Shown: positions 48,378-63,639, numbered from the stretch's first letter. The stretch: 64,000 nucleotides of DNA from Candidatus Daviesbacteria bacterium (GCA_016176465.1 JACOXD010000010.1:7497-71496), one strand, 5' to 3'. The notes: generated by a model from the sequence alone, not told the origin. Numbers and translations are program-made.

Positions 48378-48446
48378 GCGGGATCGTCTAACGGCAGGAC
48401 AACGGACTCTGAATCCGTTTATCTAGGTTCAAATCCTAGTCCCGCA
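48378..48446 (+). tRNA. tRNA-Gln (anticodon CUG), no encoded CCA
   Basis: Acceptor GCGGGAU/GUCCCGC, anticodon stem ACGGA/UCCGU with loop CUCUGAA, T-arm GGUUCAAAUCC. Confidence 0.7.
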
Positions 48447-48496
48447 GCACGAAGAGTTAGCGGGGTGCTAAGGGTCCAAGGTTAGCCTAGCAGTCT

Positions 48497-48509
48497 TAGT
48501 CCCGCAGCT
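48497..48509. repeat. tRNA-Gln 3'-end fragment copy (TAGTCCCGCAGCT)
   Basis: 12-nt identity to tRNA 3' acceptor/T-stem region, 50 nt downstream of the tRNA. Confidence 0.4.
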
Positions 48510-48535
48510 TTTTGAGGTATGCCCAGTGTCCTATG

Positions 48536-48985
48536 TTAGAACTTTCTTGGTATACTTTCTTCAGTGAATACATCTCCAATTGTCTCTTTTGCTTTATGGA
48601 CTTGCCCAAGGAGTTTTCCTAAAGCAAAGCATTGATCATTATTTAGTTCGCTTTTAGAGGCATTTGATCCAGAGATAAAATTAAATAAAGCTGCAGGATA
48701 CTTATCTAAATAAAAAATTAATTCTCCCTTTTTATTTTTGATAGGATGGGTAATATTTTTTATTCCACAATTATTAAAAAGCCTATATGTTAAATCAAAA
48801 CGCAATTTGTATTCTTCTAACATAATATGAATCTTAAAAAAGAATGTCTCTTTTTCAGTTTCTACTTTATAACCCCAAGACGCCTCACCTCCAATTACAT
48901 GGGTGAGGTTAGTTATGTTTATTCCATAACTTTCTTCAATCTTTGCTTTAATTACCTTTTTATCAATATTGGGTTCAGTTAACAT
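48536..48985 (-). pseudogene. N-terminal fragment (149 aa) of an aminoglycoside/choline-kinase-type phosphotransferase (APH family)
   Basis: N-lobe pattern; protein about half expected length; ends next to tRNA-fragment repeat. Confidence 0.45.
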
Positions 48986-49028
48986 AATATAAGGAATAAC
49001 AGACGCTTCAATCCATTATAATATTCTT

Positions 49029-49307
49029 GTGTCTTACTCTGTCTATATTTTAAGAACTTCATCGAACACTTTATATATTGGGCAAACCAATAATTTAGAA
49101 AAAAGAATTAAAGAGCATAAAAATAAAAAAGGTAAGGGAGCAAAATATATTAGGTCTTTTTCCTCATTTGAATTAGTTTACTTTGAAAAACTCAAAACTA
49201 GATCTGAAGCAATGAAGAGAGAATGGCAACTAAAGGGATGGACAAAAGCCATGAAAGAGACTTTAATCAACTTGGGAAGCAAGTATTTATCCAAGTCCCG
49301 CAGCTAA
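49029..49307 (+). CDS. GIY-YIG nuclease superfamily protein (YhbQ/UPF0213-like)
   Basis: VYILRTSSNTLYIGQTNNLEKRIKEH GIY-YIG motif; 3' end formed by direct repeat. Confidence 0.7.
   Translation: MSYSVYILRTSSNTLYIGQTNNLEKRIKEHKNKKGKGAKYIRSFSSFELVYFEKLKTRSEAMKREWQLKGWTKAMKETLINLGSKYLSKSRS
49278..49305. repeat. Left 28-bp direct repeat AGCAAGTATTTATCCAAGTCCCGCAGCT (att-like, contains tRNA-Gln 3' motif)
   Basis: 27/28 identical to 63612-63639. Confidence 0.65.
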
Positions 49308-49323
49308 GTAAGATCAGGAAATA

Positions 49324-49371
49324 TTGACACTTTAACTTATTGGTATTAGTATATCCCTACTAGGGGGATAT
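49324..49371 (+). promoter_or_regulatory. Promoter TTGACA-17-TAGTAT followed by palindrome ATATCCC-N7-GGGATAT (CsoR-type operator)
   Basis: Read directly, 20 nt upstream of csoR start. Confidence 0.55.
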
Positions 49372-49390
49372 CCTCCAAAGGCGGACAAGT

Positions 49391-49663
49391 ATGGCATATA
49401 GACCAAAAGATACTCAAGAAAGAATTGTTCATAGGTTAAAAATAGCTAAAGGTCATTTAGAAAAGGTTATCAAGATGGTTGAGGATGACTGCTACTGCAT
49501 TGATGTTCTCCACCAATCTCAAGCTGTTCAAAAAGCATTAAGAGAAACAGATAACCTCATGCTAGAAAATCATCTTAAAACTTGCGCTATGGATGCCATA
49601 GGTAAAGGTAGAAAAGAAGAAGCAGTTGCTGAAGTGATCCAGGTATTTAAGAAAATGTCTTAA
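49391..49663 (+). CDS. csoR: Copper-sensing transcriptional repressor CsoR/RcnR family
   Basis: 90 aa; RL.RI.GH...V.KM.ED..YC.DVL.Q..AV..AL helix pattern with conserved Cys/His. Confidence 0.8.
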   Translation: MAYRPKDTQERIVHRLKIAKGHLEKVIKMVEDDCYCIDVLHQSQAVQKALRETDNLMLENHLKTCAMDAIGKGRKEEAVAEVIQVFKKMS

Positions 49664-49786
49664 AGAAAGGAGCAGATATGTGCCCTAATTGCGGTTAAGT
49701 AAACTATGACACCAGATAAGAACCTGCTTCGCAGAACCTTGCCTTTTTGACTAGCGTCAAAAACGTAAAATTTTAGTTTTAAAATT

Positions 49787-50149
49787 ATGGAATTAGATAA
49801 GATTTTTGTAGCACTATTTAGTTTAGGAGGTATTCTATTTACTTATTGGTTTTTCTTAATGAGAAATGAAAAGGAGGTAGCTGTTACCTCTGATTCTATA
49901 GATATTACAGTTGAAGGTGGTTACCAACCAGAGGTTATATCTATTCCCAAAGGAAAAACTACCAAGCTTAATTTTCTCAGAAAAGATCCTTCCAGTTGCT
50001 TAGAAGAAGTAGTTTTAGGAGATTTTAAAGTTAGAAAAACACTACCTCTAAATCAAACTGTAACCATTCCGATTACTCCTCAAAAAGAGGGTGAATATGT
50101 TTTTAGCTGTGGAATGAACATGTTCCATGGAAAGATAAAGGTTGTCTAA
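49787..50149 (+). CDS. Membrane-anchored cupredoxin-like domain protein
   Basis: N-terminal TM, C-terminal FSCGMNMFHGKIKVV; paralogous to C-terminus of 62235-63275. Confidence 0.55.
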   Translation: MELDKIFVALFSLGGILFTYWFFLMRNEKEVAVTSDSIDITVEGGYQPEVISIPKGKTTKLNFLRKDPSSCLEEVVLGDFKVRKTLPLNQTVTIPITPQKEGEYVFSCGMNMFHGKIKVV

Positions 50150-50150
50150 T

Positions 50151-50300
50151 ATGAGTAAAAGTAAATTATATACCTGTCCTGAATGTAGATTCTCTTATAA
50201 AGATAAGGCTTTAGCTAAAAAATGTGAGGCTTGGTGCAAAAAGTACAATAGCTGTAATTTAGAAATTACAAAATACTCAGTAAACAGGGAGGTGTTGTAA
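50151..50300 (+). CDS. Small Cys-rich protein (49 aa; CPEC...C..WC...SC) between cupredoxin gene and copA
   Basis: ORF below track threshold; ATG 1 nt after upstream stop; 3' end supplies SD for copA. Confidence 0.4.
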
Positions 50301-50305
50301 AAAGT

Positions 50306-52735
50306 ATGCCAGCAGTGAGCAAGCTCTCTCCTTTGGAGATAAAAAGAACATTTTCAGTACAAGGAATGCACTGTGCTTCCTGCGTGAGGCTTATTGAAAG
50401 AGCTTTGAGTAGAACTAATGGCATATCAGAGGCAAATGTTAATCTTGCAACTAACAAAGCCACCATCACTTATGATCCTAAAAGTGTTAATGATGAGCAA
50501 ATAGAATCTTCTGTATCCAATATAGGTTATAAAGCATTATTAGACGAGGAAGTTAAATCAGAAGATGATGAGAAAAAAGAAAAACAAAAAGAATTAAGAA
50601 AGTTACAGCATAAAGTTGGTATAAGTTTATTTTTAGGATTACTAATTTTATGGGGTTCTTTTCCGGGTTTAATGAATACTGCCCCAGCTATTTTAAGAAA
50701 TTTTTGGATACAGCTTCTCCTTGCTACCCCAGTTCAATTTTGGGCAGGTTTAGATTTTTATAGAGCTACTATTCCAGCATTAAAACATAGAACAGCTAAC
50801 ATGGACACTTTAGTGGCAATTGGTACAACTGTCGCTTATAGTTATTCAGCTTTTGTCACAGCCCTTCCTCAGGTAGTTAAAAGTATTGGTATTGATCCTC
50901 TCCCTTACTTTGATGTGGCAACTATAATTATTGGTTTAATACTTCTTGGTAGATATTTTGAGGCTAAAGCTAAGGCTGGTACGTCTGAAGCAATTAAAAA
51001 ACTAATAGGTTTGCAGGCAAAAACAGCCAGAGTTTTGAGACTCTCCTCTGTCATCTCGAACGATAGTGAGAGATCTGCAGATTCTAATCTAGAGATTTCT
51101 CTCCGCCAGCTGGCGGATCGAAATGACAAAAGTGAAACAAGTGATGAGAGCAAATATTTAGAAGTAGATATTCCTATAGATCAGGTGGTTATAGGAGATA
51201 TCATTAGAGTACGTCCTGGAGAAAAAATTCCAGTTGATGGAGAAATTTTGGAGGGAGAATCCTCAATTGATGAATCAATGATTACGGGAGAAAGTATTCC
51301 AGCTGACAAAACTAAGGGCGATACAGTCGTAGGTGCAACAATTAATAAATCAGGAACATTTACTTATAAAGCTACCAAAGTAGGACAAGAGACTATGCTT
51401 GCCCAAATTATTAAACTTGTTCAAGAAGCTCAGGGTTCAAAAGCTCCTATCCAAAGAATTGCAGATCTTATTTCCTCTTACTTTGTACCTATTGTCATAA
51501 TACTTGCTTTTGCTACCTTTGGTATCTGGTATGTATTTGGTCCAACCCCAGCTCTTTTATACGCACTTCTAAATACTGTAGCAGTTTTAATTATTGCCTG
51601 TCCTTGTGCCATGGGACTGGCTACACCAACAGCTATTATGGTAGGTACAGGAAAGGGTGCAGAGCATGGAATTTTAATTAAAGATGCAGAAAGTTTAGAA
51701 ACTGCCCACAAAATTAAGACGGTCATCTTTGATAAAACTGGAACTTTAACAAAAGGAAAACCAGAAGTGACAGATATCATTGCGAGGAGTGAAATGATGA
51801 AGCAATCTATAAAGAGAAGATCGCCACGCTTCGCTCGCGATGGCATACTTCGTTTGGCTGCTTCAATAGAAAAAGGCTCTGAACATTCTTTAGCTGAGGC
51901 AATAGTCCAAGAAGCTGAAAAACAAAATATTCAACTGGAACCTGTCACAAAGTTCAAAGCTATTGCAGGGCATGGAGTGGAAGGAGTTGTTGATGGAAAG
52001 CAAGTTTATTTTGGAAACCGAAAATTAATGGAAAGAGAAAAAGTAAGAATCCTAAAACTTGTTCAGGATGACATAGAAAGGTTAGAAAGTGAAGGTAAAA
52101 CTGTAATGATATTAGCAACCTCCTCCCGTCATTCTGAGCGAAGCGAAGAATCTCAACTTATTGGTCTTGTGGCTGTAGCAGATACCGTCAAAGATACTGC
52201 TAAAGAAGGTGTAAAAGCTTTGCAGAAAATGGGTATAGAAGTTGTTATGATCACTGGAGATAACACAAGAAGTGCTAAAGCTATTGCAGATCAGGTAGGT
52301 ATTAAAAGAGTTTTGGCAGAAGTACTACCAGATCAAAAAGAAGCTGAAGTAAGGAAGATTCAAGCGGAGGGCAAAAAAGTGGCAATGGTTGGAGATGGGA
52401 TTAATGATGCACCCGCCTTAGCAGCAGCAGATATTGGAATAGCTATGGGAAGTGGTACGGATGTGGCAATTGAGGCAGCGGATATTACCTTAATAAATAA
52501 GGACCTTAAATCTGTAGCTCAAGCTATTAACCTCTCCAAAAAGACAATGAGAACTATAAAATTAAATCTTTTTTGGGCATTTGGCTATAATGTTTCACTG
52601 ATTCCTGTAGCAATGGGAGTTTTATATCCTTTTTGGGGAATATTGTTAAATCCAATCTTTGCCTCAGTTGCTATGGCCACAAGTTCTATATCAGTTGTTG
52701 GAAACTCATTACTTTTAAAAAGAGTAAGGATTTAA
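50306..52735 (+). CDS. copA: Copper-translocating P1B-type ATPase
   Basis: N-terminal HMA GMHCASC, CPC motif [26 protein letters not shown]; contains at least three in-frame low-complexity/palindromic inserts. Confidence 0.9.
51040..51140. repeat. ~100-bp in-frame palindromic insert in copA (includes perfect 14-bp palindrome CCGCCAGCTGGCGG) encoding ~35 aa [36 protein letters not shown]
   Basis: Segment has no counterpart in canonical CopA between TM4 and the actuator domain. Confidence 0.5.
51816..51846. repeat. In-frame GC-rich repeat (reverse orientation, CGCTTCGCTCGCG) in copA N-domain encoding ~[11 protein letters not shown]
   Basis: Shares core with recX insert. Confidence 0.5.
52128..52154. 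repeat. In-frame repeat GTCATTCTGAGCGAAGCGAAGAATCTC in copA encoding [10 protein letters not shown]
   Basis: 29/32 identical to 56521-56552; GTCATTC head shared with element at 297. Confidence 0.6.
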
Positions 52736-52736
52736 A

Positions 52737-53324
52737 ATGAAAGCATTACCTTCAAAGTTTATTTTAACAAAAAAACCTAAGGAATATTTAAAACAAGGGC
52801 TAACTCATTGTGGTGCTTACTCTGTAAAAGCTATTATAGAAGCATTTGATAAAGACTACAAAAAAGATCCAAGAGATTATCACACTTTTTGGTTAAATAG
52901 ATTAATAGGTACAGGGCTATGGAGATCTTATTATGTGGATATATTAAAATCATTTGATTTAAACGCAAAAGCCAAAGAAGCTAAGAGTCTAACAGACAAA
53001 GAACATTTAGATTTACTTAAGCAATTATTATCCACTAATAATCCTGTGATGATCTATGTTGGGAATGGTTATACAAAAACTGGTGAATACAATAAGCTGC
53101 GAGCAGCACTAGTTGGTCATTGGGTCACTCTTTGGGGTTATTCTGATTCAGAACAAGTATTTTATGTATATGATTCTGCTGCCCCAAAAAAGTTATACGA
53201 TAATGTTCCAGTCGGTAATAAAAAAAGAACTTATGAGCAAATATTAAGAGATTGGAAGGGTGCAAAAATTACTAAATTTATTTGGCCCTGGGAATATTTC
53301 TATATAGAAGTAAAAAATCAATGA
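52737..53324 (+). CDS. Papain-like (C39-like/BtrH-like) cysteine peptidase domain protein
   Basis: Candidate catalytic Cys in LTHCGAYSV and His in GHWVTLWGY; weak. Confidence 0.4.
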   Translation: MKALPSKFILTKKPKEYLKQGLTHCGAYSVKAIIEAFDKDYKKDPRDYHTFWLNRLIGTGLWRSYYVDILKSFDLNAKAKEAKSLTDKEHLDLLKQLLSTNNPVMIYVGNGYTKTGEYNKLRAALVGHWVTLWGYSDSEQVFYVYDSAAPKKLYDNVPVGNKKRTYEQILRDWKGAKITKFIWPWEYFYIEVKNQ

Positions 53325-53602
53325 AAAAACATTTCTTACTATTTTTTCTAGATGATTTTCATCAAGGGGCTATGAATCATTTAATACATTTTGTGGGTTT
53401 CACAGTTTTAGGATACGGATTAGGAAAACCAAGTTTATTTTTAATAATACTCTCTCCTTTTATAATGGAATCAGGACATATTTATAATTATTTAACTGGA
53501 AGACATAAAGAGCTAGCTATAAAAATAATTCCTTTACAGCTTTTAGCATGGGTTATATTTGTAGGCATCGGCTATTTAATTGCTAATTTTTTTGGATACT
53601 AA
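53321..53602 (+). CDS. Small His-rich membrane protein (3 TM)
   Basis: ATG overlapping upstream stop (ATGA); His clusters HQGAMNHLIHF, ESGHIYNY. Confidence 0.4.
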   Translation: MKKHFLLFFLDDFHQGAMNHLIHFVGFTVLGYGLGKPSLFLIILSPFIMESGHIYNYLTGRHKELAIKIIPLQLLAWVIFVGIGYLIANFFGY

Positions 53603-53603
53603 A

Positions 53604-53739
53604 TAATGGGTCTTTGGATAATATTTTTAACTGGTCTAACAGTTGGAGGCTTAACTTATTTAGCCGTACAAGGAGGTCTTCTTGCCTCAGTTGCTATGGC
53701 CACAAGTTCTATATCAGTAGTTCTAACTCTTTATTGTTA
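53604..53739 (+). pseudogene. Chimeric gene remnant: first ~28 codons of a 62235-like gene (MGLWIIFLTGLTVGGLTYLAVQGGLLAS) fused to last ~12 codons of copA ([11 protein letters not shown]...)
   Basis: 5' part matches 62235-62320 at protein and DNA level; 3' part GCCTCAGTTGCTATGGCCACAAGTTCTATATCAGT identical to copA 3' end (52661-52695). Confidence 0.6.
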
Positions 53740-53834
53740 AAGAGGTTCAAGATATGAACCAGACATGTCCTTTCGTTGAGGTATTCTTCCCATTTTTGAA
53801 ATAACTAGTTAACTCTGATTCTGTAGTTTAACTC

Positions 53835-53873
53835 TTTGACATCTGAATGCAGGGATACTACACTTAGTAGTAG
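53835..53873 (+). promoter_or_regulatory. Promoter TTGACA-17-TACTAC with operator palindrome TACTAC-ACTTA-GTAGTA (copy 1)
   Basis: Same palindrome at 58048 and 61442, each ending at a start codon. Confidence 0.55.
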
Positions 53874-53894
53874 ATATTAGAACGAACCAATAAA

Positions 53895-54941
53895 ATGAAC
53901 AAAATACTAATTCTTATAGTTCTATTAATCGTATCAGCAGCAGGGATATTTTTGTATATAAATAGATTTCAAAAACCAGTTGAAGTCTCTCAAGAGGTCT
54001 TGAATAAACTTAATGAAAATAAACCTACTCTTTCCCAAGATGAGGATAGGTTTTTAAATCTGCTTGAGCAAAACGCAGTCTCAGGTGGTCCTCCAAAAGA
54101 TGGCATCCCCGCCATAGATAAACCTCAATATACAACTGCTGCTGAAGCTGATTCTTGGCTTTTACCAAATGATGTTGTTTTTGGAATAGATTACCAAGGT
54201 TTTGTTGCAGCATACCCTCAAAGGATTTTAGTTTGGCATGAAATATTAAATGATCAAATAAACAGACAAAAGGTATCTATTAGTTATTGTCCTCTAACTG
54301 GCACTGCCATTGGTTTTGAGGCTTCAGTAACTAAAGATCTAGATTCATCCTTTGGAGCATCAGGAAAGTTGGTTAACTCTAATTTAATTATGTATGACAG
54401 AATTAGTGATTCCTACTGGCCTCAAATTTTAGGTAAAGCCATTAATGGTCCAGCTAAGGGGAGGAATTTGCAAGAGTTTCCAGTAGTTTGGACAACATGG
54501 GATAAATGGAAAACAAAGTTTCCAGAAACAAAAGTACTTTCTAAAAATACTGGATTTGTTCGTAACTATGATGTTAATGGTGATCCCTATGGATCATATC
54601 TTAGAGAAGATAAAGGATATTATGCTTCTGACAGGCTAATTTTTGAACCGATAAATAAGCAAAGCTTTTCTTCGAATAAGGATGATCGTTTAAAACCGAA
54701 AACAGTAGTAGTGGGAATTCGTGATAAGGATGGTAATGCTGTAGCAATTTTGAAAGATTCTCTGCGCCAACAAAAGAAAATGGAAGTTTCTTTAGGAGAT
54801 AAAGTGGTGGTAGTTGATTATGATCAAAGCCTAGATTTTTACCAAGCATCTGTAAAAGATACAAAAGAAGCGATTAATGCTTTTGATGCTATGTGGTTTG
54901 CCTGGGTAGCATTCTATCCCAATACTAAGTTAATAGAATAA
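53895..54941 (+). CDS. DUF3179 domain protein
   Basis: N-terminal TM; conserved SYCPLTGT block. Confidence 0.55.
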   Translation: MNKILILIVLLIVSAAGIFLYINRFQKPVEVSQEVLNKLNENKPTLSQDEDRFLNLLEQNAVSGGPPKDGIPAIDKPQYTTAAEADSWLLPNDVVFGIDYQGFVAAYPQRILVWHEILNDQINRQKVSISYCPLTGTAIGFEASVTKDLDSSFGASGKLVNSNLIMYDRISDSYWPQILGKAINGPAKGRNLQEFPVVWTTWDKWKTKFPETKVLSKNTGFVRNYDVNGDPYGSYLREDKGYYASDRLIFEPINKQSFSSNKDDRLKPKTVVVGIRDKDGNAVAILKDSLRQQKKMEVSLGDKVVVVDYDQSLDFYQASVKDTKEAINAFDAMWFAWVAFYPNTKLIE

Positions 54942-54942
54942 A

Positions 54943-55506
54943 ATGTTAGCGTTATTTTTATCAATAATTACACAGAGAAAATTTTTCTTAGTAGCCTTGA
55001 TTGTTTTTGTGGTATATATTCTAATTTATTTAGCTGCAGTAGGACATTTGATCTTCACATCCCGCATGGAGCCAGCTTATTCATTTTTAGAAGTAAAATT
55101 CTTGACAAACTGGCAACAACTTCTACTGCGACAAAGGTCACCTTTTTTGTTTGAAGCAATTGGGGCAATCTATATAGGTCCCAATATCAAACTATTTCTC
55201 TCAATTCCTAACTTGATACTTGCTTCAGTGTTAGGATTTCTTGTCGGATCTAACTTTGCCTTAAGTTATTATAACTTTAAGAGATTAGGGTTATCAGGTG
55301 GAAAAGGAGCAGTTGCACTTTTGGGAACCATTCCGGCTATTGTTTCGGGAAGTGTTTGTTGTGTTCCTACTCTGATTCTGGTGCTAGGATTACAATTAAC
55401 AGCTACTTTAGCCACAGCGTGGTCTTTTTTTATTCCACTTTCAATAATCCTGCTTATTTTAAGTCTAGTATGGTCTGTAAAAAGAATTGAAACTGGAAGA
55501 TTGTGA
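54943..55506 (+). CDS. Membrane protein with MerT-like intramembrane Cys-Cys motif (GSVCCVPTLILVLG)
   Basis: 4-5 TM; CC pair in TM resembling MerT TM1 (TCCLGPLVL). Confidence 0.4.
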   Translation: MLALFLSIITQRKFFLVALIVFVVYILIYLAAVGHLIFTSRMEPAYSFLEVKFLTNWQQLLLRQRSPFLFEAIGAIYIGPNIKLFLSIPNLILASVLGFLVGSNFALSYYNFKRLGLSGGKGAVALLGTIPAIVSGSVCCVPTLILVLGLQLTATLATAWSFFIPLSIILLILSLVWSVKRIETGRL

Positions 55507-55522
55507 GGGGAGGTGAAGAATA

Positions 55523-55771: not shown

Positions 55772-55804
55772 TGGAGGGAGGTGCAAAAGGTTATTAATAA
55801 AAAC

Positions 55805-57193: not shown

Positions 57194-57196
57194 CAT

Positions 57197-57730
57197 ATGT
57201 ACAATCAACAAAAACTTTTAAAATTCAGAAAGCAAAAAGACGAAGCTTGGAAAGAAGATGCCCAGTCTCCCTTAGCTGAGGAGCAAAAGCGAAGCTTTAA
57301 AGGTCTAAATTATTTTCCTCCTAATCCTGATTTTAGTTTTGAACTAGAGTTAAATAAAAATATCCCTGGTGTGGGTGAGAGAGTAGTAATTAAAACAACG
57401 GGTGGGGATGAGCAGGTCTATTTAAGAGCTGGAAGGGTCAAGTTCAATGTTGAGGGTAAAGAGGTAGAGGCATTAGTGTTTGAAGATCCAGAGCAAGAAC
57501 AGTTTCAATATTATTTATTATTTAGAGACCAAACAACAGGAAAGGAAACTTATGAAAATGGCAGAATGTTACAAATCCCTAAAAAAGGAGATAAGTTAGT
57601 AATCGATTTTAATTATGCATATAATCCCTATAGCTCATATAATAACAATTGGGATTGTCCAATTACCCCTCAAGAAAATATCTTACCTTTGGCAATTCAG
57701 GCTGGAGAAAAGATTTTTAAGAACTTATGA
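57197..57730 (+). CDS. DUF1684 domain protein
   Basis: Pattern F.GL.YFPP...F; WDCPITP motif. Confidence 0.5.
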   Translation: MYNQQKLLKFRKQKDEAWKEDAQSPLAEEQKRSFKGLNYFPPNPDFSFELELNKNIPGVGERVVIKTTGGDEQVYLRAGRVKFNVEGKEVEALVFEDPEQEQFQYYLLFRDQTTGKETYENGRMLQIPKKGDKLVIDFNYAYNPYSSYNNNWDCPITPQENILPLAIQAGEKIFKNL

Positions 57731-57772
57731 ATGTTGTGTATAAAATTCTGCCTGGAAGGGGGTGATAGCTTA

Positions 57773-58000
57773 ATGAAGAAACTTCTTATAGGAGGGGTTG
57801 CAGCTGCAATAATGTATGCAAGCATGGTAGTACCTGTTTTTGCTGATGGGCCAACTAGTCCCAATGTTAGTCCAGTTGTTGTTCCCTTAGCTCAGACAGG
57901 AACTTTTGGTCAAACTGTTTGTAGCGTTCTTGGCCAGGCTAATCTTGAGAATAATGTGGTTTTAACAGTACAGGGGCATGACCCCTCTCACATTAACTGA
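57773..58000 (+). CDS. Small secreted protein (signal peptide)
   Basis: MKKLLIGGVAAAIMYASMVVPVFA signal; SD GGAAGGGGGTGA. Confidence 0.4.
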   Translation: MKKLLIGGVAAAIMYASMVVPVFADGPTSPNVSPVVVPLAQTGTFGQTVCSVLGQANLENNVVLTVQGHDPSHIN

Positions 58001-58047: not shown

Positions 58048-58067
58048 TACTACACTAAGTAGTAGTA
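58048..58067 (+). promoter_or_regulatory. Operator palindrome TACTAC-ACTAA-GTAGTA (copy 2) ending 2 nt before blaI-like start
   Basis: Read directly; nested larger palindrome ACTTAGT...ACTAAGT. Confidence 0.55.
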
Positions 58068-58069
58068 AT

Positions 58070-58462
58070 ATGGAAAAACAGCAAAAGGTTGGTAAAGTGT
58101 TAGGTGAGTTAGAATCAGAAGTGATGGAGATAATTTGGCAATCTAAAATGCCAATTTCTGTAAGAACTGTTACTCAAATCTTGCAAACAAAGCGCCAGAT
58201 TGCTTATACAACAGTCATGACCATTATGGGGAGATTAACTGATAAAGGTTTGCTTAAGCGTACAGAATCTGGTAAAGCATATATTTACAGATCAGTCTAT
58301 TCAAAAGAAAAGTTTCTTACCAGAGTATCCCGCCAGATTATTAAAAATTTTGTTGCTAATTTTGGTGACGGCGCAGTAGCTCATTTTGCAGCGGAAGTGG
58401 AAAAACTAGAACCTTCTAAGAGGAAAGACTTAACTAAATTATTAAAGGAGGTAAGAAAATAG
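58070..58462 (+). CDS. BlaI/MecI/CopY family winged-helix repressor (no C-terminal metal-binding Cys motif)
   Basis: LGELESEVMEIIW....VR.V..IL...R.IAYTTVMT...RL..KGLL. Confidence 0.8.
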   Translation: MEKQQKVGKVLGELESEVMEIIWQSKMPISVRTVTQILQTKRQIAYTTVMTIMGRLTDKGLLKRTESGKAYIYRSVYSKEKFLTRVSRQIIKNFVANFGDGAVAHFAAEVEKLEPSKRKDLTKLLKEVRK

Positions 58463-58463
58463 C

Positions 58464-59477
58464 ATGGGTGCTAACAAAGCCTTCTGCATGCTCCTACTCT
58501 CTTTTGTTGTTGCTTTAGTTGGTTTGGGTACTGTGTTTTTTAAAACAGTTCCGCTCCTTCTTTCTCATGCAGTTTATGTTTGCCAAGAGACTTTCTCTAA
58601 TATTCTTTTTGGCATCTCGCATTCTGTTCCTCTTGTTCTAATTACTTTAGTAATCATGGTTTTACTTATTGGTCTTGTAACTTTATTGATACAAGTTTTA
58701 AAAACTAGAAATTATCTTAAGAAGCATATGAGAGAAAGAGTACCCATCCCCTCTAGTTTGATAGAAATAACCAAAGAACTTGGCTTAAATGATAGCGTTG
58801 ATGTTGTTAAAGATAGAAGTAAATTTTCTTTCTGTTATGGATTGATTCACCCTAGAATTTGTTTAAGTACAGGTCTTTTAAGATCATTAAATACAAGAGA
58901 ACTTAAAGCAGTGATACTTCATGAGAGTTACCATGTTAAAAATCGGGATCCACTTAAAATAATCCTTGGCAAAACAGCATCTTTAATGTTCTTCTTTATT
59001 CCATTGCTAAAAGATATTCAAAACTTCTATGCTTTATCAAAAGAGATAGCTGCAGATAAACTTGTGGTCGGTAATGGATATAGACATTCCCTAATTTCCG
59101 TTCTTTCAAAGCTTTTAGTGGCTGGCTCATCTAAATTCAGTGGCGTAGCAGCACTAGCTAGTTTAGATGATTTAGAAAGAAGGATACTGTTGCTCACAGG
59201 TAATCAGAAAAGATCAATATTTAAACCCTCACTGCTCAACATATCAATGTCGGCTTTTGTAGTTTTGTTTTCCCTGGCACTTATGAATACCCCAGCTTAT
59301 GCAGTTTCTGATCATGAAGGGTCTATGGAAAGCTCAATGTTTACTGCGAAGCAGGAAGTTTACTTCATTTGTCCTTTTGGGGATAAATGTGCGCTGTCTT
59401 GCAAGGCAAAGGAAGAGGAGGGTGGAAATTACAGTCAAGACTTAATGTATACACCGATGCATTACACACCAAAATGA
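58464..59477 (+). CDS. BlaR1-like M56 family membrane metalloprotease lacking penicillin-binding sensor domain; Cys-rich C-terminal tail
   Basis: HEXXH HESYHVKNRD; 4 TM; C-terminal CPFGDKCALSC. Confidence 0.7.
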   Translation: MGANKAFCMLLLSFVVALVGLGTVFFKTVPLLLSHAVYVCQETFSNILFGISHSVPLVLITLVIMVLLIGLVTLLIQVLKTRNYLKKHMRERVPIPSSLIEITKELGLNDSVDVVKDRSKFSFCYGLIHPRICLSTGLLRSLNTRELKAVILHESYHVKNRDPLKIILGKTASLMFFFIPLLKDIQNFYALSKEIAADKLVVGNGYRHSLISVLSKLLVAGSSKFSGVAALASLDDLERRILLLTGNQKRSIFKPSLLNISMSAFVVLFSLALMNTPAYAVSDHEGSMESSMFTAKQEVYFICPFGDKCALSCKAKEEEGGNYSQDLMYTPMHYTPK

Positions 59478-60442
59478 ACAGTAAATTAGTTTATATCATA
59501 GTTGCGGTTTTGCTTTTAGGAGGAGTAGTTTTCTTTGCTCAAAAACAAGCGGGTGCTCCGAAACTTAAATCTGAAACAGCACAAAGCTTACCTGCAACAA
59601 CGCAAGAAGAATCTGTTAGGGAAAATTCAACTTATGGTCATGTACACGCTTTAATTTCTAATCCTCAAGATAACAGCCTATTGTTGGGTACTCATGAAGG
59701 TTTGTTTAAGAGTGCAGATGGAGGGAAAACTTTTCAGAAAGTGGGTGTTAAAGGTGAAGTTAATGCAATGGATTTCATGAACTTTGCGTATGACCAGAAT
59801 AATAAAATCATTTATGCTGGTGGACATGATTTGGGAGTTGTTAAAAGCACTGATGGTGGAGTAACTTGGGCAAAAACAGATTCAGGGATTCAAGGTACGG
59901 ATATTCATGCTTTGGCTATGAACCCCCTTGATACTAACAGGTTATATGTTTTCTCAGTAGGTAATGGAGTTTATGGAACTAAAGATGGGGCAAAAAGTTG
60001 GTATAGAATTGATGATGGACCAGCGAACCCATCTGTAGTAGCTTTTGGATATATGGCAACTCCCTCAAGTATGGACCGCGGTATGAAAACTGATAAAACT
60101 ACTAATATTGGCTACCTTTGGGCAGGAACTGGAGGAGGGTTATATAGCTCATTTGCTTGTTTCTGTGGCTGGACTAAAACATCAGGTGTAACAGATAGAG
60201 CCACTATTTATACACTTGCTCCTGATCCAATAGACAAAAGTAGTATGCTTGCAGGAACCAAAGATGGTATTTACAAAACGACTGATGAGGGGAGAAATTT
60301 TACTAAGATAAGTGATATTAAAGACATTGCTGCCCTTAATTTTAATACATCTAATCCTAAAACAATTTATGCTGCTACTGCCGATGGTGCGATTTATAGA
60401 AGTGATGATGAAGGTAAGAATTGGAGTAAAGTGAATGAATAA
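59474..60442 (+). CDS. Ycf48-like/BNR-repeat beta-propeller protein, membrane-anchored
   Basis: Repeated S.DGG.TW / T.DG..W blades; ATG overlaps upstream stop (ATGA). Confidence 0.55.
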   Translation: MNSKLVYIIVAVLLLGGVVFFAQKQAGAPKLKSETAQSLPATTQEESVRENSTYGHVHALISNPQDNSLLLGTHEGLFKSADGGKTFQKVGVKGEVNAMDFMNFAYDQNNKIIYAGGHDLGVVKSTDGGVTWAKTDSGIQGTDIHALAMNPLDTNRLYVFSVGNGVYGTKDGAKSWYRIDDGPANPSVVAFGYMATPSSMDRGMKTDKTTNIGYLWAGTGGGLYSSFACFCGWTKTSGVTDRATIYTLAPDPIDKSSMLAGTKDGIYKTTDEGRNFTKISDIKDIAALNFNTSNPKTIYAATADGAIYRSDDEGKNWSKVNE

Positions 60443-60671
60443 GCAAAGCTTGTCTTTTGCTGTCGCAAAACGTAAGTTTTTTAACAGCTGTAGGCGCTGT
60501 TTAAACCCCTGGATAATTGCCTTAATTACTGTTGTAGTGGTTGGATTATTAATTTTTCTTCCTATTTTAGGAGTAGCAACTTTGATAGCAGCTCTTCCTC
60601 TGGTAGGTTGTACTGTAATGTGTGGTGCAATGGCTCTTATGATGCGGGATCACAAAAAAGATAAAAGTTAA
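60435..60671 (+). CDS. Small membrane protein with intramembrane Cys cluster (GCTVMCG)
   Basis: ORF, 2 TM. Confidence 0.4.
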   Translation: MNKQSLSFAVAKRKFFNSCRRCLNPWIIALITVVVVGLLIFLPILGVATLIAALPLVGCTVMCGAMALMMRDHKKDKS

Positions 60672-60673
60672 GT

Positions 60674-61414
60674 ATGAGATTGATTTTCCTGCCCATTGTT
60701 GTATTTATTATCTTAGCTGTAACGCTTTTATCGCAAAATTTATTTCCAAAAAATACACTCGAGTCAACTATTGCAAATTGGAATGATGGAACAGATGCTT
60801 TTTATCAGCAGGTTTTAAAAAGTGATGGTGATTGGGTAGATCATGCAGGTGAGGCAGTTTTTGATAACTATCCTGTAAAAAGTATTTCAAAGCTGGAAAC
60901 AGAAAATATTTTGGCACAAGCAAGGCAGCCACAACCACCAGTTTTGGGACTGCATACTGCACCTGACGGAGCAGAAAAATGGATTGAGATAGACCTATCT
61001 AATCTTAAACTTTATGCTTGGGAAGGAAACCGCAAAGTTTATGAATTTTTAATATCAACAGGCCGTCCTGGCTATAACACCCCTACAGGTGAGTTTAGGG
61101 TTTGGAGAAAGGTACTATCACAAGCCTATAAAGGCGGCTCAAGAGAAAGGGGCGATTACTACTACTTACCTAATGTTCCCTTCTCTTTATTTTTCGGTGG
61201 CGGAAATGTTTCTAACTGGAAAGGTTATGCTATCCATGGAGCATATTGGCACAGTGACTTTGGTATAAAAAACAGGAGTAGTGGGTGTGTAAATGTGAAA
61301 CCTGAAGAAGCAGGACTTTTGTACCAATGGGCTGGTCCTGCTATGCCTGCTGGGACAGGAGTTTTAAATTCAACTCCTGATAACCCTGGTGTAAGAGTAA
61401 TCGTACATGATTAA
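60674..61414 (+). CDS. L,D-transpeptidase (YkuD domain)
   Basis: YAIHGAYWHSDFG...SSGCVNV catalytic His/Cys motif. Confidence 0.75.
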   Translation: MRLIFLPIVVFIILAVTLLSQNLFPKNTLESTIANWNDGTDAFYQQVLKSDGDWVDHAGEAVFDNYPVKSISKLETENILAQARQPQPPVLGLHTAPDGAEKWIEIDLSNLKLYAWEGNRKVYEFLISTGRPGYNTPTGEFRVWRKVLSQAYKGGSRERGDYYYLPNVPFSLFFGGGNVSNWKGYAIHGAYWHSDFGIKNRSSGCVNVKPEEAGLLYQWAGPAMPAGTGVLNSTPDNPGVRVIVHD

Positions 61415-61421
61415 TTTCCCC

Positions 61422-61461
61422 TTGACAAGTTAAAGTTTATCTACTACAGTAAGTAGTAGTA
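61422..61461 (+). promoter_or_regulatory. Promoter TTGACA-17-TACAGT with operator palindrome TACTAC-AGTAA-GTAGTA (copy 3) abutting start codon
   Basis: Read directly. Confidence 0.55.
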
Positions 61462-62231
61462 TGGATAAACAGTCAGGTATTCGAATCAACCTTTTTATTT
61501 CAACCCCAATAGCTATTTTAATTGGGTCTGTGATAATCGCTTTAGCTATTCTGGTAAATGGTGGAATCATCAAATTTAAAGGATCAGTTGCTACTAAATC
61601 ACCAACTACTCAAGCAGCTCAAGCTCCAACTGCAACAGCCCCACAAGCTCCCCAACCAGAACCTCAAGCTGGCCCTGTAGAACCCCTAAAAGATGAAGAT
61701 CATGTCAGGGGTGAAAGAAAAGCTAGGATTTTACTTTTTGAATACTCAGATTTAGAGTGTCCCTTCTGTAAAAGATTTCATCCCACTGCTAAACAAATAG
61801 TAGATACCTACAAAGGAGAAGTGGCTTGGGTATATAGGCATTTTCCTTTGGATCAAATCCATTCTAAAGCAGATAAAGAAGCAGAGGCTATAGAGTGTGC
61901 AAATGAGTTGGGTGGTGAAGATGGGTTTTGGAAGATGACAGACAAGATATTTGAGGTAACACCTTCTAATAATGGTTTAAATTTGGAAGATCTGCCAAAA
62001 CTGGCAGGGGAAGTAGGGCTAAATCAAGCTACATTTAAGTCATGTTTAGATAGTGGTAAATACACAGCTCATGTAGAAGAGGATTATCAGGGTGGAATAA
62101 AAGCTGGTATTACAGGTACACCTGGCAATATTCTACTTGATACTAAACTCAATAAGACTAAATTAATACCTGGTGCACTACCCTTTGAGCAATTTAAACA
62201 AGCAATAGATGCTATGCTTAAGGAAGCATAA
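61461..62231 (+). CDS. DsbA-family thiol:disulfide oxidoreductase (CPFC), membrane-anchored
   Basis: FEYSDLECPFCKRFH thioredoxin-fold active site. Confidence 0.75.
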   Translation: MDKQSGIRINLFISTPIAILIGSVIIALAILVNGGIIKFKGSVATKSPTTQAAQAPTATAPQAPQPEPQAGPVEPLKDEDHVRGERKARILLFEYSDLECPFCKRFHPTAKQIVDTYKGEVAWVYRHFPLDQIHSKADKEAEAIECANELGGEDGFWKMTDKIFEVTPSNNGLNLEDLPKLAGEVGLNQATFKSCLDSGKYTAHVEEDYQGGIKAGITGTPGNILLDTKLNKTKLIPGALPFEQFKQAIDAMLKEA

Positions 62232-62234
62232 CAA

Positions 62235-63275
62235 ATGGATCTTTGGTTAATATTTCTAACTGGTTTAACTGTTGGTGGACTTACCTGTCTAGCTGTGCAG
62301 GGGGGTCTTCTCGCCTCTACTATTGCTGCAAGGGAAGAGGAAGATATAGACGCAGGAAGCAGAAGAAAACATACTATATTCCCCACTGCAGCCTTTTTAA
62401 CTACTAAGCTTATTGCCTATACGATTTTAGGCTTTCTTTTAGGACTATTCGGACAAACCCTACAGATCTCTGGTAGTGCTCAAACTGTGATGCAGCTTCT
62501 AGCTGGAGGATACATGATAGCTGTGGCACTAAATCTTCTTAATGTTCACCCAATATTCAGATACGCCATTATTCAACCCCCAAGATTTTTAACCAGATTA
62601 ATTAGAAATCAAACTAAATCTAAAGATATTTTTGCTCCAGCCTTGCTTGGTGTTATGACCATCTTTATTCCTTGTGGAACAACTCTAGCTATGGAAGCAT
62701 TAGCAATCTCTTCAGGTAAACCATTTCTCGGCTCAATGATTATGGGAGCATTTACTTTAGGCACTATGCCACTATTTTTTGGTATTGGGTTCTTAACTTC
62801 TTTGCTGGGGGATACTTTCAGAGCCAAATTTTTCAAAATAGCAGGAGTTTTGGTGTTATATCTAGGTATTATCTCATTTAATGGGGCACTAGTTGCTAGC
62901 GGTTCTCCTATTACTTTACAGTCAATTGGACAAGCTTTACCAATTGAGATTGATTTATCTGGAGGGCAAGCTGCAGCATCTGCTGATTCAAATGTAAAAC
63001 TCGTTGGTGGAGTTCAAACTGTCGATATGTCTGTTTTCCCCACCAGCTATAGTCCAAACTACATTCAGGTAAAAGCAGGCACTCCTGTTAGGTTGAATTT
63101 AACTCCATCAGGTGGTTTAGGATGTACTTCATTTTTTAGAATTCCAAAACTGAGAATTACTAAAAAATTGGCTCAAGGCGCAACTGAAACTGTTGAGTTT
63201 ACCCCTCAAAGTCCTGGAAGATTAACCTTTACCTGTTCAATGGGAATGTATACAGGGACAATAGAGGTTATATAA
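62235..63275 (+). CDS. DsbD/CcdA-like (DsbD_2) membrane protein with intramembrane Cys pair fused to C-terminal cupredoxin-like domain
   Basis: TM Cys in GGLTCLAVQGG and FIPCGTTLA; C-terminal FTCSMGMYTGTIEVI. Confidence 0.55.
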   Translation: MDLWLIFLTGLTVGGLTCLAVQGGLLASTIAAREEEDIDAGSRRKHTIFPTAAFLTTKLIAYTILGFLLGLFGQTLQISGSAQTVMQLLAGGYMIAVALNLLNVHPIFRYAIIQPPRFLTRLIRNQTKSKDIFAPALLGVMTIFIPCGTTLAMEALAISSGKPFLGSMIMGAFTLGTMPLFFGIGFLTSLLGDTFRAKFFKIAGVLVLYLGIISFNGALVASGSPITLQSIGQALPIEIDLSGGQAAASADSNVKLVGGVQTVDMSVFPTSYSPNYIQVKAGTPVRLNLTPSGGLGCTSFFRIPKLRITKKLAQGATETVEFTPQSPGRLTFTCSMGMYTGTIEVI

Positions 63276-63320
63276 GCGGAGCTTGATACTTCGTATTGAG
63301 GCGAAGCCTCTAATTTCATT

Positions 63321-63557
63321 ATGAGTAAAATAGTAAAGAAAAAATTAAAGATTGATGGGATGCACTGCAGCAGCTGTGCCATGAATATAGAGTTTGATTT
63401 AGAGGATGTGGAAGGTATTAAATCGGCTAAAGCTAGCCTGGTAAAAGAGGAATGCGAAGTAGAATTTGATGAAGAAAAAGTTAATGAGCAAATGATTATC
63501 CAAACTATCCAGAAAACTGGGTACCAAGCAAGGTTACAAGAAGAGTCTAAGCAGTAA
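63321..63557 (+). CDS. copZ: Heavy-metal-associated (HMA) copper chaperone
   Basis: GMHCSSC motif, 78 aa ferredoxin-like. Confidence 0.8.
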   Translation: MSKIVKKKLKIDGMHCSSCAMNIEFDLEDVEGIKSAKASLVKEECEVEFDEEKVNEQMIIQTIQKTGYQARLQEESKQ

Positions 63558-63611
63558 TAGGGTTTCTGATTCCTACTGCGCACCAGTTCCTGACAAGCTT
63601 TTCTTTTGCAA

Positions 63612-63639
63612 AGCAAGTATTAATCCAAGTCCCGCAGCT
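63612..63639. repeat. Right 28-bp direct repeat AGCAAGTATTAATCCAAGTCCCGCAGCT (att-like)
   Basis: 27/28 identical to 49278-49305. Confidence 0.65.

What the first reader, a model, noticed from the sequence alone, without database searches (positions are those of the whole stretch)
48378..63639. tRNA-Gln followed by serial copies of its 3' end; the last two are 28-bp direct repeats bounding a ~14.3-kb metal and redox island
The tRNA 3' motif AGTCCCGCAGC reappears at 48499, 49295 and 63623. The last two lie in the 28-bp repeats AGCAAGTATT(T/A)ATCCAAGTCCCGCAGCT (49278-49305 and 63612-63639, 27/28 identical). This is the classic signature of integration at a tRNA gene (attL and attR), with remnants of earlier insertions between (a truncated APH-like kinase and a GIY-YIG gene whose 3' end is formed by the repeat). 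The bounded segment encodes CsoR, CopA, CopZ, cupredoxins, a Dsb pair, a MerT-like protein, a MerA-like reductase and a BlaI/BlaR1 pair. No integrase is seen inside, so the island may be fixed or mobilised in trans, or the recombinase lies just beyond the window on the right.
Basis: partly seen in the sequence, partly recalled or inferred. Interest (0 to 1): 0.8.

Follow-up and report, generated by a model that had tools for sequence, protein, structure and literature searches.

The report
Integrase-less copper island beside tRNA-Gln
A 14.3-kb copper and redox stress gene cluster in an uncultured Daviesbacteria (CPR) genome sits just downstream of a tRNA-Gln gene between two copies of the tRNA's 3' end; this is the ordinary footprint of an old site-specific insertion that no longer carries a recombinase.

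Summary
tRNA-Gln(CTG) lies at 48377-48448. Its 3' motif AGTCCCGCAGC recurs on the same strand at 48498, 49294 and 63628 (0.23 expected by chance). The last two copies sit in 28-bp (27/28) to 34-bp (31/34) direct repeats that bound 14.3 kb.

The cargo is a CsoR/cupredoxin/CopA module plus three operons, each behind a shared palindromic operator, with a BlaI-family repressor and an M56 protease. The "MerA" and "MerT" labels fail profile thresholds.

For insertion:
- The two repeats share a 17-nt arm that the tRNA lacks.
- A kinase gene is truncated next to the first copy.
- Homologous clusters in other Daviesbacteria sit in three unrelated contexts without tRNA or repeats.
- An island protein has relatives at 81-88% identity, while the nearest GltX is 67%.

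Against or missing:
- No recombinase in the island, in 20 other window ORFs, or in 7.6 kb recovered to the right.
- GC3 is host-like.
- No empty site was found, because relatives are too distant.
- The first copy is the 3' arm of a strong hairpin after the tRNA and may have another origin.

Verdict: a decayed island of the att-flanked, integrase-less (CIME) type in a tandem array. It is a new member of a known kind, of modest interest.

The parts
48377..48448 (+). tRNA-Gln (anticodon CTG), the integration target. Its last 17 nt, AATCCTAGTCCCGCAGC, are the reference copy of the repeat family.
   Evidence: ARAGORN; Rfam RF00005, 63.1 bits; repeat family D1.
48450..48514 (+). Long hairpin directly after the tRNA. 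Its 3' arm is repeat copy 1 (core 48498-48508) and it runs into a T-run. Likely a terminator or a decayed tRNA-like helix; its 5' arm contains GCGGGG, which resembles the tRNA's 5' acceptor strand.
   Evidence: MFE -28.8 kcal/mol, z -3.5, 0 of 200 shuffles as stable. Not recognised by any Rfam model even at E 10.
48536..48985 (-). N-terminal about 40% of an APH-family kinase, cut off 27 nt before repeat copy 1. A remnant gene.
   Evidence: NCBIfam APH(9)-Ia, E 1.7e-13, covering model positions 5-131 of 330. PDB 3i0o residues 14-133 of 339.
49029..49307 (+). Small GIY-YIG nuclease gene (92 aa, MBI2012019.1). Its last 10 codons and its stop codon are supplied by repeat copy 2.
   Evidence: PF01541, E 4e-20, covering residues 3-76; NCBI name.
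49272..49305 (+). Repeat copy 2 (DR2), the left boundary of the 14.3-kb segment. It consists of a 17-nt arm shared with DR3 (AGCAAGTATT[T/A]ATCCA), the core AGTCCCGCAGC, and a T.
   Evidence: Repeat families D5 (31/34) and D1; alignment A1.
49324..49663 (+). csoR promoter (TTGACA-17-TAGTAT), a GC-tract palindrome ATATCCCTACTAGGGGGATAT (49351-49371) and csoR (49391-49663).
   Evidence: Promoter scan 10/12; sequence; PF02583, E 1.4e-22. Calling the palindrome a CsoR operator rests on my knowledge of CsoR boxes.
49787..52735 (+). Cupredoxin (49787-50149), an unannotated 52-aa zinc-ribbon ORF (50142-50300), and a copper P-type ATPase, CopA (50306-52735).
   Evidence: PF13473. TIGR01511 scores 610 bits against a cut-off of 397; HMA and E1-E2 ATPase domains.
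52737..53602 (+). A C39-like peptidase-fold protein and a small membrane protein, inserted between copA and the position where dsbD_2 follows copA in relatives.
   Evidence: Weak Pfam hits, below cut-off. copA is directly followed by dsbD_2 in L131 and L134.
53606..53740 (+). Rearrangement scar: an in-frame chimera of the dsbD_2 5' start (28 codons) and the copA 3' end (40/41 nt identical to 52659-52699).
   Evidence: Repeat D2; BLAST against relatives; pairwise alignment and translation.
53836..58000 (+). Operon 1 behind a TACTAC-N5-GTAGTA operator (53856-53875). Genes: DUF3179, a membrane protein with a vicinal Cys pair (54943-55506), glutaredoxin, a class-I pyridine-nucleotide disulfide reductase (55781-57193), DUF1684, and a small secreted protein.
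   Evidence: Pfam. MerA equivalog scores 381 bits against a cut-off of 454. Promoter and palindrome.
58048..61414 (+). Operon 2 behind the same operator (58048-58067). Genes: BlaI/CopY-family repressor, M56 (BlaR1-type) protease without a penicillin-binding domain, a BNR-repeat protein, a small membrane protein, and a YkuD L,D-transpeptidase.
   Evidence: PF03965, 98.6 bits; PF05569, 60.1 bits. CopY_TcrY is the best NCBIfam hit but falls below its cut-off. Palindrome.
61422..63557 (+). Operon 3 behind the same operator (61442-61461). Genes: DsbA-like thioredoxin, a DsbD_2-cupredoxin fusion (62235-63275), and a CopZ-type HMA chaperone (63321-63557).
   Evidence: Pfam. Promoter TTGACA-17-TACAGT. 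Homology to relatives ends at about 63571.
63606..63639 (+). Repeat copy 3 (DR3), the right boundary. It has the same arm and core as DR2 and is followed by the right flank TTGAACTG... No further copy occurs in the next 7.6 kb.
63674..64000 (-). 3' part of the right-flank gene (204 aa, MBI2012039.1). It belongs to a small family of unknown function and is not a recombinase.
   Evidence: Full HMMER scan: 13 representatives. No Pfam or PHROG family. NCBI name.

Best explanation
The region downstream of tRNA-Gln(CTG) is a tandem array of remains of site-specifically integrated elements. The 14.3-kb segment between the second and third copy of the tRNA 3' end is a copper and redox stress island that kept both attachment-site repeats but no recombinase.

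Proposed history (inferred). Related elements carried an attP that ended in ...AGCAAGTATT(T/A)ATCCA-AGTCCCGCAGC-T. A recombinase crossed over with the tRNA inside the 11-12-nt core AGTCCCGCAGC(T). The tRNA kept its own T-stem base (CCTAG). Each element left an attR made of its own arm (CCAAG variant) plus the core. Two such events put the 14.3-kb island and a second element side by side. The second element has since been cut down to 0.8 kb: a truncated kinase gene plus a GIY-YIG gene. The integrase genes were lost, or they act from elsewhere in the genome.

The cargo comes from a gene pool shared among Daviesbacteria. It was itself assembled by rearrangement, as shown by the dsbD_2'::'copA scar. 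It appears to have two regulators (inferred). CsoR would control cupredoxin-copA. A BlaI-family repressor with an M56 protease would control three operons that share one operator.

Shown: the repeats, their arm and core anatomy, the gene content, the lack of a recombinase within reach, and the different contexts in relatives. Inferred: the recombination mechanism, the order of events, and the regulation.
For: - Four same-strand copies of the tRNA 3' motif against 0.23 expected.
- DR2 and DR3 share 31/34 nt. This includes a 17-nt arm upstream of the core that does not match the tRNA, and similarity stops right after the core. That is the P-O-B' / P-O-P' pattern expected for attR sites of related elements. 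The same pattern is described for tandem ssrA islands in Dehalococcoides, where a 15-bp motif upstream of the repeat does not align with ssrA (PMC3146451).
- The kinase gene is truncated next to copy 1.
- Logan contigs from independent runs confirm the junctions: tRNA 3' end-DR1-DR2-csoR is contiguous (L124, L125), and the island runs through DR3 into the right flank (L001-L005, L138).
- Homologous clusters at 74-92% protein identity lie in three other contexts, with no tRNA-Gln and no repeat: before pfkB in L128 and L131, before an RCC1-repeat gene in L132, and near recA in L134.
- DsbD_2-cupredoxin has at least 8 clusters at 81-88% identity, while the nearest non-self GltX among 5.8 billion proteins is 67%.
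Against: - No tyrosine or serine recombinase in the island, in 20 further ORFs of the window, or in the 7.6 kb right of DR3. So no enzyme is tied to the repeats.
- No empty site and no identical island elsewhere was found. Relatives with gltX-tRNA-Gln synteny are too distant.
- Codon-level composition is host-like (GC3 p 0.37). The tetranucleotide distance is no larger than that of window region 2-18 kb.
- Copy 1 sits in a hairpin with a tRNA-5'-like arm. A displaced 3' end does not predict this.
- The identity discordance rests on one island protein and one core protein.
- The repeat could not be counted genome-wide, because the rest of the contig and MAG was not retrievable.
Confidence: 0.6

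Rival explanations
1. Resident chromosomal cluster with incidental tRNA-end copies. The copper and redox cluster has long been at this locus. The copies of the tRNA 3' end come from local duplication and decay of tRNA-Gln genes or their terminators, or from homologous or illegitimate recombination, not from integrase-mediated insertion.
For: - Copy 1 is part of a hairpin whose 5' arm resembles the tRNA 5' acceptor strand.
- A relative (L010) also carries a tRNA-3'-like fragment in a hairpin 56 nt after its tRNA-Gln.
- GC3 is host-like.
- No recombinase was found.
- The cluster family is common in Daviesbacteria.
- The island shows illegitimate-recombination scars.
Against: - Decay of tandem tRNAs does not explain why DR2 and DR3, 14.3 kb apart, share a 17-nt non-tRNA arm and the same T-stem variant (CCAAG) while similarity stops exactly after the core.
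- It does not explain the truncated kinase.
- In every relative examined the cluster lies in another context without a tRNA.
- Seven other relatives with tRNA-Gln have no copies downstream.
Confidence: 0.2
2. Still mobile, moved in trans. The island is a working cis-mobilisable element. A recombinase encoded elsewhere in this genome, or on a co-resident element, still excises and integrates it through DR2 and DR3, and the natural population is mixed for its presence.
For: - In run SRR12113430 the island contig ends at 63652 and the right-flank contig starts at 63623. That is an exact 30-nt (k-1) overlap, which marks a branch in the assembly graph. Position 63622 is the only DR2/DR3 mismatch.
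- Contigs from four other runs end at 63651-63665.
- In run SRR12113424 the csoR contig starts exactly at 49294, the first base after the position that tells DR2 from the tRNA and DR1.
- Both att copies are nearly intact at 27/28.
Against: - The same contig ends are also explained by a variant at 63653 or by thin coverage; overlaps in two other runs are only 17 and 23 nt.
- In SRR12113430 the contig across DR2 is unbroken, which a DR2xDR3 deletion form in that run should prevent.
- The predicted GIY-YIG protein of the deletion junction is not among 15 billion proteins.
- No recombinase was seen.
Confidence: 0.12
3. Metagenome assembly artefact. The contig joins DNA from different strains or species at the conserved tRNA or at the short repeats, so the array is not one molecule.
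For: No Logan contig crosses tRNA positions 48403-48420. Left-flank contigs stop at 48402 and 48424, and island-side contigs start at 48421 and 48423. Contigs also break around DR3.
Against: - The tRNA 3' 28 nt, DR1, DR2 and csoR are contiguous in two runs. DR3 plus 13-26 nt of right flank is contiguous in five runs, and the right flank reaches 17 nt into DR3 in another. So the repeats and both island junctions are real whatever lies left of the tRNA.
- Left flank, island and right flank co-occur in the same runs at 99.7-100% identity.
- GC3 is uniform.
Confidence: 0.05

Closest known systems
Tandem ssrA-specific genomic islands of Dehalococcoides (McMurdie et al. 2011, PMC3146451)
   Same: Several islands lie in tandem downstream of a small structured-RNA gene. 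Each is bounded by a direct repeat of about 20 bp of that gene's 3' end. A conserved motif just upstream of the repeat does not match the gene itself and marks the crossover point near the T-loop. Only about half of the islands (16 of 31) carry an integration module. The cargo is adaptive and phylogenetically discordant.
   Different: The target here is tRNA-Gln, not tmRNA. No serine-recombinase integration module is present in any unit. Only one genome is available, so recurrence across strains is not shown. The host is a CPR bacterium.
CIMEs and site-specific accretion at tRNA 3' ends in streptococci (Pavlovic et al. 2004; reviewed in PMC5704250)
   Same: [quoted passage not shown]
   Different: No partner ICE or IME with an integrase was found within the window plus 7.6 kb. 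Cis-mobilisation is untested. CPR bacteria have no known conjugative partner for it.
Classical tRNA-integrated genomic islands and prophages with T-loop-to-3'-end crossover (Williams 2002, recalled from memory)
   Same: The repeat runs from the T-loop to the 3' end of the tRNA, the tRNA is kept intact, and the displaced copy lies at the far end.
   Different: The integrase gene normally found next to the tRNA-proximal end is absent. The tRNA-proximal boundary of the 14.3-kb unit is a repeat copy, not the tRNA itself.
CsoR-CopA-CopZ copper efflux operons and BlaI/BlaR1-type (M56 protease and repressor) signalling
   Same: CsoR, a Cu-type P1B ATPase above the curated cut-off, an HMA chaperone, and a Penicillinase_R repressor next to an M56 protease.
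   Different: The M56 protein has no penicillin-binding sensor domain; it has a Cys-rich tail instead. The repressor lacks the CopY C-terminal Cys motif. The regulon covers Dsb-type and DUF3179 genes. None of this regulation has been tested.

Membership tests
tRNA-integrated genomic island (site-specific recombination) | Lies at the 3' end of a tRNA gene | tested here: met
   tRNA-Gln is at 48377-48448. The array starts 1 nt after it and the island proper starts 857 nt downstream.
tRNA-integrated genomic island (site-specific recombination) | Bounded by direct repeats that copy the tRNA 3' end | tested here: met
   17-nt family with 4 copies; DR2/DR3 match 27/28 and 31/34; chance expectation 0.23.
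tRNA-integrated genomic island (site-specific recombination) | Encodes a tyrosine or serine recombinase near one end | tested here: not met
   No PF00589, PF00239 or PF07508 hit in any island ORF, in 20 other window ORFs, or in the 7.6 kb right of DR3.
tRNA-integrated genomic island (site-specific recombination) | Same site empty in related genomes | tested here: inconclusive
   Eight relatives keep gltX and tRNA-Gln together and lack both the island and extra tRNA-end copies (one, L010, has a short fragment). But they are at most 67% identical in GltX and do not share the right flank.
tRNA-integrated genomic island (site-specific recombination) | Composition differs from the host | tested here: not met
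   GC is 0.370 vs 0.340, but GC3 is 0.268 vs 0.255 (p 0.37). The tetranucleotide distance is matched by region 2-18 kb.
tRNA-integrated genomic island (site-specific recombination) | Cargo phylogeny or context discordant with the core genome | tested here: met
   DsbD_2 has relatives at 81-88% identity against 67% for the nearest GltX. Homologous clusters lie in three other contexts. This rests on one protein of each class.
CIME (cis-mobilisable element) | Retains attL and attR | tested here: met
   DR2 and DR3 match 27/28.
CIME (cis-mobilisable element) | [quoted passage not shown] | tested here: met
   Of the 19 annotated island genes, those with a profile match are metal, redox, envelope or regulatory, and none matches a recombinase or transfer family.
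CIME (cis-mobilisable element) | Excised or mobilised by the integrase of a related element | not testable with these tools
   Only indirect hints from contig ends. The predicted deletion-junction protein is absent from the collection. Raw reads and the rest of the genome could not be reached.
mer operon (MerA / MerT) | MerA equivalog score and C-terminal vicinal Cys pair; MerT profile match | tested here: not met
   TIGR02053 scores 381 bits against a cut-off of 454. The protein ends ...GITSYLKD with no Cys pair and has no NmerA domain. The 187-aa membrane protein has a CC motif but no Pfam or NCBIfam hit.
CsoR/CopA/CopZ copper homeostasis | CsoR-family repressor, Cu-type P1B ATPase and HMA chaperone above curated cut-offs | tested here: met
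   PF02583 scores 80.3 bits. TIGR01511 scores 610 against a cut-off of 397. PF00403 scores 56.7.
BlaI/BlaR1 beta-lactam sensing pair | Penicillinase_R repressor, M56 protease and a penicillin-binding sensor domain | tested here: not met
   The repressor (98.6 bits) and the M56 domain (60.1 bits) are present. But the protein is 337 aa rather than about 585, and it scores 33.9 against a cut-off of 1200 for BlaR1. It shares the architecture, not the ligand.

The most novel reading that the evidence does not exclude
Island movement at this tRNA site does not depend on an integrase. On this reading the small GIY-YIG nuclease, whose gene ends inside the second repeat, cuts at the tRNA-like sequence, and repair copies or removes cargo between the tRNA-end repeats. 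That would be a recombinase-free way of mobilising tRNA-site islands in CPR bacteria. A milder version, at about 0.12 probability, is that the island is still moved in trans by a recombinase encoded elsewhere.
Probability: 0.03. Interest if true: 0.75.

Novelty: new member of a known kind. Interest (0 to 1): 0.3.

Why it matters
If the reading is right, a member of the Candidate Phyla Radiation gained, or moved, its copper and thiol-redox stress genes by the same tRNA-site integration, accretion and decay seen in cultivated bacteria. In my two literature searches on CPR I found no paper describing such islands, but I did not check this systematically. The locus gives exact junction sequences that can be searched in raw reads to ask whether such islands still move in nature. 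On the practical side, the "MerA" and "BlaR1" labels on these genes should not be taken at face value.

Tried and rejected
(1) Empty-site search in GTDB species genomes, using GltX as anchor. gltX-tRNA-Gln synteny is kept in eight Microgenomates loci, but identity is at most 64%. None has island genes or right-flank genes.
(2) Exact search for the right flank in JGI metagenomes gave 0 hits.
(3) IMG/VR scans. For the core plus T-arm 16-mer, the 36 hits are chance matches or tRNA-Gln genes. For the arm 18-mer, none of the 17 hits continues with CGCAGC. For DsbD_2 relatives there were none.
(4) The source contig (NCBI, 147,299 bp, proteins MBI2012014-MBI2012039) could be identified but not fetched.
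(5) The partial right-flank ORF gave nothing in the word-indexed search. The full HMMER scan found the 204-aa protein and 12 relatives, all without annotation. The idea that it is a recombinase is rejected.
(6) SNP density of Logan contigs, island against flank: too few sites to say anything.
(7) The copy-1 hairpin as a pseudo-tRNA: no Rfam hit even at E 10. Left open.
(8) DR2 and DR3 do not form notable structures of their own.
(9) Composition as evidence of foreign origin: rejected, not informative.

Full report
**Observation.** ARAGORN finds one tRNA in the window, tRNA-Gln(CTG) at 48377-48448, and Rfam agrees. The 11-mer AGTCCCGCAGC covers the last two T-stem bases, the 3' acceptor strand, the discriminator and one more base. 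It occurs exactly at 48438, 48498, 49294 and 63628, all on the + strand. Shuffles give 0.23 matches at up to one mismatch. The repeat finder extends the pair to 34 nt (31/34) and groups all four copies in a 17-nt family.

**Anatomy of the repeats.** An alignment of the four sites shows an invariant core, AGTCCCGCAGC.
- DR2 and DR3 also share the 17 nt upstream of the core, AGCAAGTATT(T/A)ATCCA. This arm does not match the tRNA beyond ATCC and carries CCAAG where the tRNA has CCTAG.
- CCAAG cannot pair with the tRNA's own T-stem strand CTAGG. So this arm was never part of this tRNA, and it is the same in both copies.
- Downstream of the core the four sites are unrelated.
- This is the pattern expected if related elements with the same attP recombined with the tRNA inside the core. 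Each attR then consists of the element arm, the core, and whatever lay downstream.
- The tandem ssrA islands of Dehalococcoides show the same thing: a conserved 15-bp motif upstream of the 20-bp repeat that does not align with ssrA (PMC3146451).

**Copy 1 is different.** It has no such arm. It is the 3' arm of a 65-nt hairpin that begins 2 nt after the tRNA and runs into a T-run (-28.8 kcal/mol, z -3.5). The hairpin's 5' arm contains GCGGGG, which resembles the tRNA's 5' acceptor strand. It may be the tRNA's terminator, a decayed tRNA copy, or an att remnant turned into a hairpin. Rfam recognises nothing there.

**Between copy 1 and DR2.** The minus-strand ORF at 48536-48985 aligns only to the first 131 of 330 positions of APH(9)-Ia and to residues 14-133 of a spectinomycin phosphotransferase structure. 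It is a kinase gene cut off next to copy 1. The GIY-YIG gene (PF01541) reads through DR2, which supplies its last ten codons and its stop codon.

**The 14.3-kb segment.**
- Pfam and NCBIfam give CsoR, a cupredoxin, CopA (above the curated Cu-ATPase cut-off), a C39-like protein, a small membrane protein, DUF3179, a membrane protein with a CC motif, glutaredoxin, a class-I disulfide reductase, DUF1684, a BlaI/CopY-family repressor, an M56 protease, a BNR protein, YkuD, a DsbA-like protein, a DsbD_2-cupredoxin fusion and CopZ.
- The reductase scores 381 bits against a MerA cut-off of 454 and has no C-terminal Cys pair. The CC-motif protein matches no profile. So the mercury labels are not supported.
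- The M56 protein is 337 aa and has no penicillin-binding domain.
- Three copies of a TACTAC-N5-GTAGTA palindrome overlap the -10 of perfect TTGACA promoters in front of three operons. They are conserved in a relative. I infer they are operators of the BlaI-family repressor.
- csoR has its own promoter and a GC-tract palindrome 19 nt after DR2.
- At 53606-53740 an in-frame chimera joins the dsbD_2 5' start to the copA 3' end. In relatives copA is directly followed by dsbD_2. So the cargo was itself built by rearrangement.

**Recombinase.** None was found in the island, and none in 20 further ORFs of the window, which encode housekeeping functions such as the shikimate pathway, SecDF, an ABC transporter and MiaA. 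The right-flank ORF is the end of a 204-aa protein (MBI2012039.1) from a small family with no annotation. A 7.7-kb Logan contig (L138) extends the right flank 7.3 kb past the window. It holds a membrane protein, DUF4112, a DnaQ-Cho fusion, a two-component system and one unknown protein. It has no recombinase and no further repeat copy.

**Source and relatives.**
- The window comes from an NCBI MAG of Candidatus Daviesbacteria (proteins MBI2012014-MBI2012039, contig 147,299 bp). The contig itself could not be fetched.
- Relatives from GTDB keep gltX near tRNA-Gln but are at most 64% identical in GltX. They lack the island, the right flank and extra tRNA-end copies. One of them has a 10-nt fragment in a hairpin. 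So no true empty site is available.
- Among 5.8 billion proteins the nearest non-self GltX is 67% identical. The island's DsbD_2-cupredoxin has at least eight clusters at 81-88%.
- Contigs carrying those close homologues show the same internal order (BlaI-M56-BNR-small-DsbA-DsbD_2-HMA, or cupredoxin-CopA-DsbD_2-HMA). They sit in three different surroundings, with no tRNA-Gln and no repeat after the HMA gene.
- Homology to them stops about 14 nt after the copZ stop codon, roughly 35 nt before DR3.
- Together this says the cargo belongs to a shared, mobile or reshuffled Daviesbacteria gene pool, and that its position here is specific to this lineage.
- Composition does not help: GC is slightly higher (0.370 vs 0.340) but GC3 is not (p 0.37).

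**Support from independent assemblies.** Logan contigs from six sequencing runs match the window at 99.7-100%. Two run from the last 28 nt of the tRNA through copy 1, DR2 and csoR. Five run from the island through DR3 into 13-26 nt of the right flank. One runs from the right flank 17 nt into DR3. The junctions are therefore real. No contig crosses the middle of the tRNA, so the link to the left flank rests on the MAG assembly.

**Contig ends around DR3.**
- In run SRR12113430 the island contig ends at 63652 and the right-flank contig starts at 63623, an exact k-1 overlap. Position 63622 is the single DR2/DR3 mismatch.
- In run SRR12113424 the csoR contig starts at 49294, right after the base that separates DR2 from the tRNA.
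- These ends could mark alternative junctions, that is, recombination between repeats in the population.
- A variant at 63653, or thin coverage, explains them as well.
- The contig across DR2 in SRR12113430 is unbroken.
- The predicted protein of the deletion junction is not in the 15-billion collection.
- I treat this as a hint only.

**Conclusion.** The best reading (confidence 0.6) is a tandem array of integrated-element remains at tRNA-Gln. Its large unit is an att-flanked, recombinase-less copper and redox island, which fits the CIME definition (PMC5704250) and closely parallels the Dehalococcoides ssrA islands. Rivals:
- A resident cluster with incidental tRNA-end copies (0.2).
- An island still mobilised in trans (0.12; this is a sub-case of the best reading, not an additional alternative).
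- An assembly chimera (0.05).
- A GIY-YIG-driven mechanism (0.03).

It is a new member of a known kind. The CPR host and the well-defined junctions give it modest interest.

Noticed in passing
53856-53875, 58048-58067, 61442-61461: Three copies of a TACTAC-N5-GTAGTA palindrome, each overlapping the -10 of a TTGACA promoter, lie in front of DUF3179, the blaI-family gene and the dsbA-like gene. They are conserved in relative L132. They are probably operators of the BlaI/CopY-family repressor and would define a three-operon regulon.
   Followed up: partly
53606-53740: An in-frame chimera of the dsbD_2 5' start (28 codons, about 82% nt identity to 62235 onward) and the copA 3' end (40/41 nt identical to 52659-52699), joined at a GCCTC microhomology. 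It is a scar showing that genes were inserted between copA and dsbD_2, which are adjacent in relatives.
   Followed up: yes
48450-48514: A strong hairpin (-28.8 kcal/mol) immediately after tRNA-Gln. Its 3' arm is the first copy of the tRNA 3' end and its 5' arm resembles the tRNA 5' acceptor strand. It is followed by a T-run. No Rfam match.
   Followed up: partly
47642-47684 and 48277-48319: A 43-nt direct repeat (77% identical) lies upstream of both minus-strand genes, the pterin-4a-carbinolamine dehydratase gene and the PaaX_M/Cas2-like-domain gene. It may be a shared promoter or operator.
   Followed up: no
58464-59477: The M56 (BlaR1-type) protease has no penicillin-binding domain and ends in a Cys-rich tail (CPFGDKCALSC). 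This suggests it senses metal or redox state rather than beta-lactams.
   Followed up: no
50142-50300: A 52-aa ORF with CxxC...CxxxC motifs lies between the cupredoxin gene and copA. It is not annotated in the NCBI record, where protein numbering skips it.
   Followed up: no
63674-64000 (continues in L138:7007-7621): The right-flank gene encodes a 204-aa protein from a small family (13 representatives among 1.84 billion) with no Pfam or PHROG match. Two alleles differing by one residue occur in the sampled runs.
   Followed up: partly
L010:6654-6730: In a distant relative, tRNA-Gln(CTG) is followed 56 nt later by GAGTCCTAGC plus TGGGCAGCCA. That is the 3' end of the tRNA-Gln(TTG) type seen in L023, and it again forms the 3' arm of a hairpin.
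   Followed up: partly
63622-63665 and 49294 (Logan contigs L001-L005, L126, L137-L139): Contig ends from six runs cluster at the repeats. One pair overlaps by exactly k-1 at the DR2/DR3 mismatch position. This is possibly structural heterogeneity at the att sites, but it is not resolved.
   Followed up: partly
42035 (L130): A Logan contig from SRR12113430 carries 34 extra nt relative to the window at this position.
   Followed up: no
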